Of a stretch of DNA of 64,000 bases, positions 26,793 to 37,615 are shown piece by piece. Position 1 is the stretch's first letter, and every line of letters begins with the position of its first letter. Under the pieces are notes generated by a model. It was not told where the DNA came from, did not search any database, and worked only from the letters and a program-made list of their open reading frames with translations. This DNA comes from Candidatus Heimdallarchaeota archaeon (GTDB taxonomy: Archaea; Asgardarchaeota; Heimdallarchaeia; Heimdallarchaeales; Heimdallarchaeaceae). Location of the stretch: assembly GCA_018238545.1 (NCBI GenBank), contig JABCTC010000004.1, forward strand, positions 1 through 64,000, read 5' to 3'. A program made the position numbers and the translations under genes.

Positions 26793-27557
26793 TCACAAAT
26801 AAACTTCAAAAAATTGTGAGAAGTATTTCTTCATAATTTCAAAATCTTTTGTTTTTGAAAACTTGTGATTTGCTCCAGGAACGATTTTCATTTCTTTATC
26901 GATTTTCTCAGGAATTTTACCAAATAATTTTTTTATTTTCTCAACTGGAATTATCTCATCTCTATCACCAGTGATTATTCTAACTGGACATTGGAGATAA
27001 AGAGCTTGTTTCATGGGGTTGTAATGTCTAGATTGAAATAGAAAACTGTTCTTTAAGTTAATTCTTGGAAATCGCATCTGTTTACTAGCTCTCCATAATT
27101 GCACTAACCCATCAAAGATTTTCATTCTTGGAATTTCCTCAGTATCATAAACAGGAGAACGAATTGCTAAGCATCTGATTCTATCATCCCTAGAAGTATG
27201 ACACAAAGCCATCGCTCCCCCAAAACTTTCTCCTAACAATCCTATTCTGGAGGGATCGATTCGTGGGTGGTGAACAAGTTTTGAGAGAACAAGATTGATA
27301 TTTTCTTGAGAATAAATATACTCGAATAACCCCGTACTTTGTCTCACTCCAACATAGTCAAAAGCAAAATAAGCATAGTTTTTAGAAGTAAAATAATTGG
27401 CTAATCGAGTTTCTTCTTCTTCTGGTTCAAACCCTGGCATACCGTTCAAATGTAAAACTAAAGGAGCTGGTTTCTTTGTATCTGGAAGAAACAACATCCC
27501 GTTAATTAGCTCTTTTCTGAATTGTATTTGAATAAACTCTTTTGACATATATTTCAC
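26793..27557 (-). CDS. alpha/beta hydrolase, candidate chain-release thioesterase
   Basis: GESFG nucleophile elbow, GDRDE, GANH; GTG start overlaps the megasynthase TGA (an ATG at 27548 is an alternative start). Confidence 0.85.
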   Translation of the reverse strand: MKYMSKEFIQIQFRKELINGMLFLPDTKKPAPLVLHLNGMPGFEPEEEETRLANYFTSKNYAYFAFDYVGVRQSTGLFEYIYSQENINLVLSKLVHHPRIDPSRIGLLGESFGGAMALCHTSRDDRIRCLAIRSPVYDTEEIPRMKIFDGLVQLWRASKQMRFPRINLKNSFLFQSRHYNPMKQALYLQCPVRIITGDRDEIIPVEKIKKLFGKIPEKIDKEMKIVPGANHKFSKTKDFEIMKKYFSQFFEVYL

Positions 27558-36500: not shown

Positions 36501-37615
36501 TCTTCTTTTAATAATCCACCTAGTGCAAATATCGGTAGCGCTCCTTTAGTTAAAACTTCCTTACCAAAACTAGGGAGGTCGGTGATATTTGCCATAGGTC
36601 CTTGAATAATAGGAAATTGAACTCCTAAACCTCGTGCAAATTCGCTATTCTCAGCAAATGGCCACTCTTTTGAAACAGTATCTAATTGTTCTCTCAAAAG
36701 AACAGATAAGCCTTCCAGAAATGAAGGTAAATTAGAAAATTTTGATTTTATAAATTTAGCAAAACAAACATCAACTCCTAAAGGCAGGAGTGTATTTTTA
36801 ACATTTTCATCAGCAAAGAAAAGAGATTCTTTCGCTAGATTTTCTACAGTTTCTAAAATAGCGTTTTTCTGTTCACCTTGCTTGGATAAATCTTTTAGAT
36901 TTCTAATAGACTGATTAGCAATTTTTCCCATTAAACGATATTTGAAATCTAATGACTCGCCAACAAGATACGTATCATTTTCATCAAGACTAGCAAGATA
37001 GTTCTTTGTTTGTTCATTTAGCGGACATTCTGGTAGGAGATACAACTGCCCTTCTAGAACAACACCTAGAGCTCCTCCAATGAAAGCTCCTACTATATTG
37101 TAATAGCCAAAACCTCCTTGAATTACAAATGGATAACCAGAATCATAGAATTCTTGAATTAATATGAAAGAGGACTTTTCGCCTACTTTTCCTCCAGACT
37201 CTATCCCTTTAACTAGAAAGAAGTCTACTTGTGATGCTTTTTTATGTGCTTCAGTGAGATTACTTACTTCTGCAATTACCCAATTACTTCTTGGTTTTTC
37301 ATCTATCTTAGAATAATTTTCAAAGCTAGAAGAGACGATGATAATCGGGATAAAATCAACGTCACTTAACCACTTCAACTGTTCTTCGCTAGATACTCTT
37401 ACTCCCCATTGTTTATCTGTTGAAATCTCTTTAAGACATTTAAGAATAATCTTCTTAGTTTTATCTTCTGTTAAACCTTCAAGATCAATTAAACCTATTC
37501 CGCCATTATTTGAAATGGTGATTGATAAACCTGGATCTTCAATTCCTCTTGGTGAATACCCCCAAATAGGATATTGTACTTTGATTTCTCTCTTTATTTG
37601 TTCAATTGTTTTCAT
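27554..37615 (-). CDS. type I iterative FAS/PKS megasynthase: ER'-ER-KS-AT-KS-ACP-ACP-KR-DH-PPTase
   Basis: FabK/PfaD-like ER (QGPM, EGNECGGH, AGGI); KS1 DAAC/HGTST/GHL; AT GHSLG/AFHS; KS2 NAAC/SHETYT/GHAMG; two ACPs LG(V/I)DT; KR TGGGRGI and YSFAN; DH HQIQNVPFFP; Sfp-type PPTase SISHS/GVDIE/WTIKEA; start placed at ATG 37615 after a GGTGA RBS. Confidence 0.93.
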   Translation of the reverse strand: MKTIEQIKREIKVQYPIWGYSPRGIEDPGLSITISNNGGIGLIDLEGLTEDKTKKIILKCLKEISTDKQWGVRVSSEEQLKWLSDVDFIPIIIVSSSFENYSKIDEKPRSNWVIAEVSNLTEAHKKASQVDFFLVKGIESGGKVGEKSSFILIQEFYDSGYPFVIQGGFGYYNIVGAFIGGALGVVLEGQLYLLPECPLNEQTKNYLASLDENDTYLVGESLDFKYRLMGKIANQSIRNLKDLSKQGEQKNAILETVENLAKESLFFADENVKNTLLPLGVDVCFAKFIKSKFSNLPSFLEGLSVLLREQLDTVSKEWPFAENSEFARGLGVQFPIIQGPMANITDLPSFGKEVLTKGALPIFALGGLLKEEAEAMFQGIQTTFDTKDVYGGGIIGLEVIKERREDHIALLQKYKSPICLIAAGSVQLARRIQSLGFKTLFHAPALALFKDAMDNDVEYLILEGNECGGHIGNQTSFVLWESILQYLDSIRNKITHKINVIFAGGIADEVASAMLSGIISSHLSIISPGIQMGTGYMFTEEIVETQALTQFYQEQLLNSTQTKVIGSTVNTRARTISTKFVQDTLEHEQERLKQGLPIRERKELYEKDNLGALRIAAKGEMWNNDHIPGGDTTQFVPISTDVQLESGVFMTGEIIGRKRNVYRIEDLHFDIVQNGESFLENQVQKIEPLISRLPAEEEVEFAGKVELSTTNKVAIVGLGCVFPDALNIEQYWQNIINKKYSITEVSKDRWDPKLYFSSDKSIEGKTYSKIGAFIKDYKFNSIQYRIPPKMAKQMDDVQKWSLDAARQALEDADLPTDGKTRTNMAIIIGNSLGGEIQRYTNRRVFFPEIEEVIKNNEIFQKLSKSEQTEFIQDLTESYSHKYPAVTEDSMPGELSNVIAGRIANVFNLTGKSMTTDAACASSIAALDTAIASLNSKDFDVALVGGADRSMDISTYVKFCKIGALSGIGSRPFDEKADGFVMGEGAGFIVIKRLEDAIRDGDRIYATISSIGSSSDGKGKGITAPNPEGPKQAISMALKKANLNVNDVQYIETHGTSTIVGDAVELQILDDVYHERNRGKKLAVGSVKSQIGHLKSAAGIASIIKTSLSLHNRLLPPSVNVETLNPKINWELSPVFVNTEANEWKVDNNEVRRAGVSAFGFGGTNYHAIMEEYDKDKITYSSEAPVGSAVLTPTSFLETQVGRKEKEQQICFMYTGQGSQYIGMMESLSKHSNIIAETLETAEKVWNQYYSISFKEILFGSPNLTKEANNQRLTSTKFTQPALFIVEIALTRYLEEKGIKPDFVAGHSLGEYSALVAAGVLSFKDGFKAVIARGKAMCSAGSNTEGSMAAILATRHKVKDIVERVTDHYITIANINSLSQTVISGDDKGIDDAIELAIEEGITAKKLRVSTAFHSKIVKSVEKELRKVLASLTYSKPQIPAFSNVTGSKYPSDPTKVQQLLLDQVCSSVQWVDEVKEIYKAGGRIFVEVGPKRALHSFVKDILKNRKDVQVFTTLVPKEDEIEKLSRTIESVRKVSQEVISETTYVTEKTDKPVATYQSSTIEKPLGFEQLSKDQVLHDYLKQGYDLYSRYVDIDSSKETKRDMSIKESTTSQIKIGVTGVGIGIPGKSKNVFADDNIDAVLLGENFIDSVADEVKQEMINKNITRLIKSADGNATFESIENMSQVINLAGQLGEFNPVEDFGLQPKLVKALDITFQLAICAGLEALKDAGIPLVKSEFTTTTGKVLEGEWALPEGLQNETGIIFASAFPGYDYLIKEITEHLTPNSEKSFSREFLYRVLSMGHAQFAQLIKAKGPNTQINAACASTTQAIGIAEDWIKTGRCNRVIVIAADDASSDNLLPWIGAGFLVAGGVTTKDKVEEAAIPFGKNRHGLIIGSVAAGLVLENEQAYTKRGVKPIVDLIGTTFANSAFHGSRLDVKHINSVFESFVNDIESQHNITRKELASEGIFVSHETYTPARGGSAESEVESLRHIFGADVADLVIVNTKGFTGHAMGAGIEECVAIKSMEKGIIPPIANLNEIDPNFKDLNFSKGMKKRAKYAIRLAAGFGSQIAFTAFRLNTYEDRYDIDSYDSWLAELGGNLEGFFYDGRVLKLQTSKKLKKRRELAATVKLNQAPTEFSEILSDIIQVIAEKTGYEPQLIEADMHLEEDLGVDTVKQAEIFGIVRENWNLGFDDNVNLADFSTPNSIAEYIGRNTSKAMQTTEKVTKPAAVQAENLQSKVIEIVASITGYEPETIDGDMDLEEDLGIDTIKQAEIFGELRDVLDLPIDDSVNLAELRTINDICNYLASQTSDSKKETINIEQQTETKSAEKKKSKYDIDVEKLITAPIPLNKKEAEKINMLTRSNLLVELAPKSAQAIISAFEKRGLNHKTFKLLDQESNELENKKYDTIILILPKSKSESGYIDQEIYEKLFLLFQDLDLNSEQILMAISSETYFGFDKDSYPLSGGVSGFIKSLGHEFNMKIKHVYSEKTSEIMQEMEYWDNYLEISFKNNIRYTLVSANVDENSVQMTPIELSDEDIVLATGGGRGITFKCLEELCTRSKPKVAIVGIEDISNYTIDMLDFSEEQLKEKRQKMIEELKEKEEKVTPVMIERTWNRFLFDLDVLRNIKQLESKGIDVIYSKVDVTDKKAVEEAISKIEKQLQAKITHIIHGAGLEESKQFKKKKFGLSKLIVSVKVEGIWNILNAIDKKKLKRMICFTSIAGRYGNMGQIDYSFANGYLSRLCWKLNQEGISSLACDWSAWGDVGMATRGSIMDILESQGIFPIPLDKGTTLFGDLFFSGTQPEVVVSCGLGPFEKSKRTSSKIDLSAFPMIQKLSYEDSVFKGEKTISTLADLYMNDHQIQNVPFFPGVMGIEMFAEMYHLSTSKTADVFKDIEFKAAVKLQNIDSKDVFVKYDLVSKTLQLNSLFVSKADSSRRREIEHFITRIETNAKKNRSRKSKHIIPDSRIELLSKSDIYSVFFHGPSFQILEKLVELSSEKAVAKVNLPGLKLFSDKKKKTHVEPLIIEAALQTAGLYSYIIHQSISLPSTIEKLEFFSKNKPEYVVSEFISKDDTHSYFNIEAIDKDGKTILRLDKLGLIHTQFPADISEKVLQKIATIKEYWELSSLNKGTKMKIVPIKNVIEKFSKSPEELIRHMKSQEKAAFQKIKNNKRKMEYLAGLIAAKELYSQIEKNPEIFDKIEIRKTAKGQPYIYILKDKKKSGLFLSISHSENYAIAVIGSIPLGVDIEKIEERNESFYKEAFTERERSTISNEKGLGTVYWTIKEAVSKALGEGLNISLHDIEITDNQKNNCYEVKLSDRVDTTFSKDSGLFKIDNQRSRNYSISLCEIRRK

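What the first reader, a model, noticed from the sequence alone, without database searches (positions are those of the whole stretch)
27554..37615. Unusual single-chain architecture: ER'-ER-KS-AT-KS-ACP2-KR-DH-PPTase
Seen (approximate): tandem FabK/PfaD-like TIM-barrel ER at 37615-35600 (first copy GIESGGKVG lacks the His of the second, ECGGHIG); KS1 35480-34100; AT 33990-33050; KS2 32780-31385; ACPs; KR 30010-29190; double-hotdog DH 29125-28310; PPTase 28220-27557. Established: PUFA synthases spread such domains over several genes; enediyne PksE is KS-AT-ACP-KR-DH-PPTase without ER; fungal FAS I has an FMN-dependent ER and a C-terminal PPTase in a different order. Inference: an independently assembled, self-activating, fully reducing FAS-like enzyme in one polypeptide, with a pseudo-dimeric ER.
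Basis: partly seen in the sequence, partly recalled or inferred. Interest (0 to 1): 0.85.

Follow-up and report, generated by a model that had tools for sequence, protein, structure and literature searches.

The report
One-chain fatty-acid synthase in Asgard archaea
An Asgard archaeon encodes one giant enzyme with every step needed to build fatty acids, in lineages where a key archaeal membrane-lipid enzyme was not found; its carrier domains have threonine where serine is otherwise the rule, and neither its product nor that chemistry has been measured.

Summary
Confirmed. Window 27554-37645 (-) is one intact ORF: ER'-ER-KS1-AT-KS2-ACP2-psiKR/KR-DH-PPTase, in a Heimdallarchaeaceae-type archaeon. 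Both ER halves are FabK-like; the first lacks the catalytic His in all 81 homologues aligned there. KS1 is PKS/PfaA-type, KS2 is FabF-like, and both triads are near-invariant. The gene sits in a conserved BirA/acyl-CoA-carboxylase/hydrolase cassette; ER-less relatives have an adjacent FabI. In the host's class, five families carry it (46/58 genomes) and lack GGGPS (1/58); Hodarchaeales show the reverse (0/24; 19/24). The host has PlsY x3, DegV x14 and FakA-like kinases but no PlsX. Cultured Lujinxingia carries a homologue and no stand-alone FabF. Best reading (0.6): a de novo fatty-acid synthase feeding PlsY. It is a fused variant of the catalogued but uncharacterised Type R/S pfa-like synthases; a 2020 paper noted a Heimdall PKS cluster. 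This scan reported the cluster, the GGGPS gap and the Thr site before on other genomes. No product, activity or expression is shown.

The parts
27554..37615 (-). Megasynthase ORF (3353 aa from the likely start; residue numbers below count from ATG 37645)
36671..37615 (-). ER': FabK-fold TIM barrel lacking the catalytic His (K153) and FMN motifs; probable structural half of a pseudo-dimer
35576..36670 (-). ER: FabK-type FMN enoyl reductase, H480
34088..35488 (-). KS1, type I PKS/PfaA-like; C929, H1063, H1102
33056..34000 (-). AT with malonyl-type signature; S1317, R1342, H1423; only about 33 aa from KS1
31376..32782 (-). KS2, FabF-like, triad C1833, H1981, H2021; not a Cys-less chain-length factor
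30968..31198 (-). ACP1 with Thr2184 (codon ACT, first base 31096) at the phosphopantetheine site
30686..30919 (-). ACP2 with Thr2279 (codon ACT, first base 30811) at the phosphopantetheine site
29186..30613 (-). psiKR + KR didomain of PKS type; K2707, S2731, Y2744, N2748
28301..29143 (-). Double-hotdog DH; H2871 and E3038
27557..28228 (-). Sfp-type PPTase; D3257, E3259, W3292, K3295, E3296
37626..39203 (-). Acyl-CoA carboxylase carboxyltransferase, directly upstream on the same strand
26793..27557 (-). Alpha/beta hydrolase overlapping the synthase stop codon; candidate thioesterase
26311..26790 (+). Biotin carboxyl carrier protein
24786..26288 (+). Biotin carboxylase
39300..40049 (+). BirA biotin-protein ligase

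Best explanation
An iterative, fully reducing type I fatty-acid synthase that supplies acyl chains for membrane glycerolipids. Steps: (1) BirA, BC, BCCP and CT make malonyl-CoA (genes shown; substrate inferred). (2) The fused PPTase attaches phosphopantetheine to the ACP threonine (inferred; I found no precedent). (3) The AT loads malonyl (signature shown). (4) KS1 and KS2 pair within one chain like a KS dimer and both condense, probably KS1 for priming and early cycles and the FabF-like KS2 for later cycles (triads shown; pairing modelled; division of labour inferred). (5) KR, DH and the FMN-dependent ER complete each cycle, ER' standing in for the second FabK subunit (residues shown; activity inferred). 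(6) The coupled hydrolase frees the acid; DegV/FakB with a FakA-like kinase makes acyl-phosphate; PlsY acylates glycerol phosphate in place of the missing GGGPS step (genes shown; flux inferred).
For: Catalytic residues of all domains except ER' are invariant or nearly so in 83-120 homologues. Cassette conserved in Heimdallarchaeaceae, family f7 and Lokiarchaeia, including the closed Harpocratesius genome. Poseidoniales and Kariarchaeaceae-type versions without the ER didomain have an adjacent FabI-like gene, so enoyl reduction is retained by an unrelated enzyme. No other KS, AT or PPTase found in the 92%-complete host. Host has PlsY x3 (one above the TIGR00023 cut-off), DegV x14, two FakA-like kinase domains and GlpK, but no PlsX and no GGGPS. 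Class-wide: synthase 46/58 and GGGPS 1/58 in five families, against 0/24 and 19/24 in Hodarchaeales. Family f7 also lacks G1PDH (0/12) and has adjacent FakA-DegV-PlsY genes. Lujinxingia has a one-chain homologue with BCCP and CT and no stand-alone FabF; Bradymonabacteria are reported to lack FabB/F and FabI/L (PMC7460792); the Type S host lacks fabA/fabZ (PMC3098273). KS1+KS2 model: score 0.64, best control 0.00; mark reached by 58/80 solved and 2/110 mismatched pairs; runs agree in at least 83% of contacts, partner pLDDT at least 81.
Against: No product, activity or transcript is shown. Thr at the attachment site has no precedent that I could find, so loading is an assumption. The GGGPS contrast rests on few independent lineages; in Lokiarchaeia 8 of 11 synthase carriers keep GGGPS, and the 3 that lack it have no PlsY, only PlsC-family genes. 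DegV/FakA/PlsY could equally serve scavenged fatty acids. The host keeps G1PDH, a DGGGPS-like protein, two CarS-like proteins and GGR-family genes, and lacks PlsC, so the final lipid is unclear. In Bradymonadia the synthase/FabF exclusion is weak (15 and 16 of 61, one with both; Fisher p 0.09; 31 with neither), and two other bacterial carriers keep FabF. The KS1-KS2 pass may only reflect likeness to solved KS dimers.
Confidence: 0.6

Rival explanations
1. A specialised secondary-lipid synthase: same chemistry, but the product is a long, hydroxylated or partly unsaturated chain (as for HglE or ArsA products) used outside bulk membranes; the GGGPS pattern has another cause.
For: KS1, AT, KR and tandem ACPs are PfaA-like (TIGR02813 873 bits, under the 1010 cut-off). 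Characterised pfa-like clusters make special lipids (PMC3098273). Co-occurs with GGGPS in 8 Loki genomes and with FabF in some bacteria. Two active KS domains could serve long chains.
Against: No tailoring genes in the conserved cassette; single copy in nearly all carriers; present in bacteria lacking stand-alone FabF; a PKS-type double-hotdog DH is also used by animal FAS (own knowledge), so it does not by itself indicate a special product.
Confidence: 0.27
2. The first-half ER or the ER pair is not a reductase but a FabX/UfaA-like dehydrogenase-isomerase that introduces cis double bonds.
For: FabX shares the fold and appears in the Foldseek list (E 1.5e-10); ER' is well conserved (43% mean identity against 50% for ER).
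Against: FabK ranks far higher (E 6e-19); no invariant cysteines for an Fe-S cluster; ER' has lost the flavin motifs; FabI replaces the didomain in relatives.
Confidence: 0.06
3. The Thr ACPs are never pantetheinylated; the enzyme works on CoA thioesters or on a separate carrier, and the ACP repeats are structural.
For: Serine is the acceptor in all carriers I know of (own knowledge); solved homologues align Ser at this position.
Against: The PPTase stays fused or adjacent with conserved catalytic residues; all four Thr codons are used and the only substitution seen repeatedly is Ser (24/666), as expected for a needed hydroxyl; the only other ACP-like protein found in the host has Lys there.
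Confidence: 0.07

Closest known systems
Type R secondary-lipid (pfa-like) synthase, Shulse & Allen 2011 (PMC3098273): Koribacter, Solibacter, Elusimicrobium, Roseiflexus
   Same: One gene KS-MAT-(second KS-like)-ACPn-KR with a PPTase gene downstream, sometimes a carboxylase subunit; product unknown.
   Different: Here ER'-ER, DH and PPTase are in the same chain; the second KS-like domain has a full triad rather than being a CLF; Thr ACPs and archaea are not mentioned in that paper.
Type S synthase of Desulfobacterium autotrophicum HRM2 (same paper); Desulfobacter homologue P0100
   Same: P0100 has ER'-ER, KS2 and Thr ACPs; Type S was proposed as a possible core FAS because fabA/fabZ are missing.
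   Different: P0100 has an extra KS-like domain after KS1 and a separate PPTase gene; that HRM2's own protein equals this form was not tested.
Bacterial PUFA synthase PfaA-E
   Same: PfaA-like KS-AT, tandem ACPs, KR, double-hotdog DH, FMN TIM-barrel ER, Sfp-type PPTase.
   Different: Multi-gene; Cys-less CLF; FabA-type DH pair; PfaD-type ER; Ser ACPs (the Lujinxingia Pfa-like gene is a Ser control).
Fungal and mycobacterial (CMN) FAS I
   Same: Single or two-chain FAS with FMN TIM-barrel ER; fungal FAS has a C-terminal PPTase.
   Different: Different order, one KS, one ACP, two transferases, barrel assembly; yeast FAS ranks low against the ER model (E 2e-8) and is absent from the 60 best KS2 hits.
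Enediyne PksE (own knowledge)
   Same: KS-AT-ACP-KR-DH-PPTase order with self-activation.
   Different: No ER, no second KS, single Ser ACP; makes polyenes.
'Potentially novel PKS cluster' in a Heimdallarchaeota bin, Chen et al. 2020 (PMC7472256)
   Same: Heimdall KS domains nearest to PUFA synthases; probably this family.
   Different: KS-level note only; no architecture, cassette or lipid link in the passages read.
ACP-independent archaeal FAS complex of Sulfolobus (10.1101/2024.07.05.601840)
   Same: De novo fatty-acid synthesis in archaea.
   Different: Thiolase/DUF35 and CoA based; that paper states archaea seem to lack FAS I/II and nearly all lack ACP.

Membership tests
Type R secondary-lipid synthase | One gene with KS-MAT-KS-like-ACP(3-6)-KR core | tested here: met
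   Order shown; 2 ACPs here, 2-6 in relatives
Type R secondary-lipid synthase | Second KS-like domain is a chain-length factor | tested here: not met
   C1833 kept in 120/120 and both His in 119/120; the 2011 label may be loose
Type R secondary-lipid synthase | PPTase as a separate downstream gene; no ER in the chain | tested here: not met
   Both fused here; separate in Poseidoniales relatives
Type R secondary-lipid synthase | KS groups with the named Type R strains | tested here: inconclusive
   An Elusimicrobia protein is among the KS2 hits; the named strains' proteins were not retrieved
PUFA synthase (Pfa) | PfaA model above cut-off | tested here: not met
   873 bits against 1010
PUFA synthase (Pfa) | KS-CLF and FabA-type DH pair (PfaC), PfaD-type ER | tested here: not met
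   None in the cassette or found elsewhere in the host; ER is FabK-like
Fungal/CMN FAS I | AT-ER-DH-MPT-ACP-KR-KS order, one KS | tested here: not met
Enediyne PksE | No ER, one KS, one ACP | tested here: not met
FabK enoyl reductase (second half) | FabK fold with FMN motifs and catalytic His | tested here: met
   whole-protein score under the TIGR03151 cut-off (102 against 453)
FabK enoyl reductase (first half) | Catalytic His and FMN motifs | tested here: not met
   His in 0/81 aligned
Canonical ACP | Ser at the start of helix II | tested here: not met
   Thr in both; 634/666 family-wide
Functional fatty-acid synthase | Makes saturated acyl chains from malonyl-CoA | not testable with these tools
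   Needs enzyme assay or lipidomics

The most novel reading that the evidence does not exclude
A structurally distinct type I FAS, working as one chain of internal pseudo-dimers (ER'-ER, KS1-KS2) with phosphopantetheine on threonine, is the primary fatty-acid source of several Asgard lineages that lost GGGPS and build acyl-containing (ester or hybrid) membranes through hydrolase, FakAB and PlsY, and of bacteria such as Bradymonadales described as fatty-acid auxotrophs.
Probability: 0.35. Interest if true: 0.95.

Novelty: new variant of a known kind. Interest (0 to 1): 0.8.

Why it matters
Archaea are said to lack FAS I, FAS II and nearly all ACPs. A complete ACP-dependent synthase in most genomes of five Heimdall-class families, where the first committed archaeal lipid enzyme was not found, makes the lipid-divide question directly testable with one gene and with closed genomes from enrichments. 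It also offers two stand-alone biochemical tests: phosphopantetheine on threonine, and two active ketosynthases of different classes in one iterative chain. Limits: Hodarchaeales lack it (0/24) and its order is unlike animal or fungal FAS, so nothing here makes it the ancestor of eukaryotic FAS.

Tried and rejected
Assembly artefact or contamination: rejected (homologues at 56-94% in named Heimdall bins, gene GC 34.7% against genome 34.0%, GC3 0.23 against 0.25 +/- 0.03). Hidden GGGPS in the host: the weak profile hits are triose-phosphate isomerase, TrpF and hexulose-phosphate synthase; the one GGGPS in the host's family (G011) is on a 7.6-kb contig and 24% identical to the Hodarchaeales type, possibly stray. 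PlsY as a universal partner: not so in Lokiarchaeia. KS2 as CLF: rejected. Expression: no RNA holder listed; the one RNA run laid gave nothing; neither is evidence. KS2 tree is the quick tree, unrooted in effect; one FabF row was a wrong frame and is ignored; Loki sequences sit sister to Heimdallarchaeaceae (SH-aLRT 100), but donor and direction were not tested. The full KS1-AT-KS2 stretch (1380 aa) exceeds the folding limit; KS homodimers were not modelled. Three paper look-ups (two for the Elusimicrobium genome paper, one for a PPTase review; ids from memory) were not held, so the lack of a Thr precedent is a limited search. Fisher tests across genomes overstate because kin are not independent.
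Full report
Observation. The window holds one uninterrupted ORF at 27554-37645 on the minus strand; the likely start is the Met at 37615. More than 50 homologues of 3290-3800 aa have the same order, and a contig from an independent cold-seep run spans ER to the ACPs, so the fusion is real. Nearest relatives (85-94%) come from Heimdallarchaeota/Heimdallarchaeaceae bins; composition matches the host.

Anatomy. Both N-terminal halves match FabK structures and each other. 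The second keeps the flavin motifs and H480 in 82 of 83 homologues; the first has lost the His in all 81 aligned, and its flavin motifs. A model of residues 1-700 has pLDDT 94 and pTM 0.94 and ranks FabK far above FabX, PfaD and yeast FAS. FabK is a homodimer, so a pseudo-dimer with one active site is the simple reading (inference). KS1 is of the type I PKS/PfaA kind; KS2's best solved relatives are FabF enzymes, and its Cys and two His are kept in 119-120 of 120 homologues. A KS1+KS2 model scored 0.64 against a best control of 0.00; that mark was reached by 58 of 80 solved and 2 of 110 mismatched pairs, runs agreed in at least 83% of contacts and partner pLDDT was at least 81. KS dimers are solved, so this may show likeness only. 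The AT has a malonyl-type signature; KR, DH (His/Glu) and Sfp-type PPTase residues are conserved, and the C-terminal model (pLDDT 90) shows a PKS-type psiKR/KR unit.

Threonine carriers. Both ACPs have Thr where solved ACPs have the phosphopantetheine Ser. This holds for 634 of 666 ACP domains and is the only residue in 183 of 205 proteins, bacterial ones included; all four Thr codons occur and Ser is the only recurring alternative. The host has no second PPTase, and its one other ACP-like ORF has Lys at the site. The economical inference is that the fused PPTase modifies Thr. I found no precedent, on a limited search.

Context. BirA, carboxyltransferase, synthase, hydrolase, BCCP and biotin carboxylase recur together in Heimdallarchaeaceae, family f7 and Lokiarchaeia, including two closed genomes of the host's family where a PlsY paralogue lies next to BirA, and closed Harpocratesius repetitus. 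Relatives lacking the ER didomain (Poseidoniales, Kariarchaeaceae-type) have an adjacent FabI-like gene: two unrelated enzymes fill the same step, which supports a fully reducing cycle.

Where the chains go. The host (92% complete) has three PlsY, 14 DegV/FakB, two FakA-like kinase domains and GlpK, but no PlsX, PlsC or GGGPS was found. It keeps G1PDH, a DGGGPS-like prenyltransferase, CarS-like and GGR-family genes. Over 82 genomes of the class, five families have the synthase in 46 of 58 and GGGPS in 1 of 58; two families whose GGGPS-like proteins match Hodarchaeales-named sequences have 0 of 24 and 19 of 24. Family f7 also lacks G1PDH and has FakA, DegV and PlsY side by side. This fits release of free acid, phosphorylation and transfer by PlsY. 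It is not universal: in 111 Lokiarchaeia, 11 carry the synthase, 8 with GGGPS and 3 without, and those 3 have PlsC-family genes but no PlsY. Scavenging of external fatty acids would use the same Fak/PlsY genes.

Bacterial carriers. Lujinxingia has a one-chain homologue beside BCCP and CT and no stand-alone FabF; Bradymonabacteria were reported to lack FabB/F and FabI/L, and the Type S host lacks fabA/fabZ. In a sample of 61 genomes of that class only one of 15 carriers has canonical FabF, but the trend is weak (p 0.09) and 31 have neither.

Comparison with known systems. The core matches the Type R cluster of Shulse and Allen, described with a CLF and a separate PPTase, product unknown; the fused ER'-ER, active KS2 and Thr are not in that description. 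It fails membership of Pfa, PksE and fungal/CMN FAS. A 2020 paper noted a possibly novel PKS cluster in one Heimdall bin. A 2024 preprint states that archaea seem to lack FAS I/II and nearly all lack ACP. Earlier notes of this scan report the cluster, the GGGPS gap and the Thr site on other genomes; one later check gave the bold reading 30 in 100. These are leads, not support; the numbers above are my own tests.

Verdict. Real, conserved and unusual: a new fused variant of a catalogued, uncharacterised synthase type. Most likely (0.6) a de novo fatty-acid synthase feeding membrane acyltransferases; a specialised lipid is the main rival (0.27). Nothing is measured, and its absence from Hodarchaeales limits any claim about eukaryote origins. 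Interest 0.8.

Noticed in passing
G000:C42:20720-20968 (-), outside the window: Small stand-alone ACP-like ORF (about 80 aa, E 9e-9 to the family ACP profile) with Lys at the attachment position; role unknown.
   Followed up: partly
L054:6452 (-), L078, L079, L080: Stand-alone 500-550 aa copies of the KS2-type ketosynthase in several Heimdall-class genomes, apart from the megasynthase.
   Followed up: partly
window 34000-34088: KS1-AT linker is only about 33 aa here and in Loki homologues, against 130-160 aa in family f7 and bacterial ones; the usual linker domain seems lost.
   Followed up: partly
host genome, 14 places; family f7 genomes: Large expansions of DegV/FakB (14 in the host) and PlsY (4-11 per genome in f7); FakA-like proteins are short, lacking the C-terminal part.
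   Followed up: partly
window 21937-24575 (+): Opine-dehydrogenase-like gene followed by a B12-binding mutase-like gene, kept beside the cassette in the closest relatives only.
   Followed up: no
L045:6999-19574: In one closed genome of the host's family the synthase is split into two ORFs with KS1-AT repeated; duplication or assembly error.
   Followed up: no
L039:1754-3628: FabH-like gene and hydrolase directly upstream of an ER-less synthase in a Heimdall bin; possible priming enzyme.
   Followed up: no
L070, L083, P0080, P0099: Bacterial homologues move ACPs before KS2, before the AT or to the N-terminus, so carrier position is flexible.
   Followed up: no
window 45069-45821 (+): 250-aa protein with repeated treble-clef zinc fingers (PF23477).
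   Followed up: no
G000:C73:107176-108246 (-), same contig beyond the window: G1PDH (EgsA, 401 bits against cut-off 413) retained in 30/30 genomes of the host's family although GGGPS was not found; suggests G1P may be acylated or used otherwise.
   Followed up: partly
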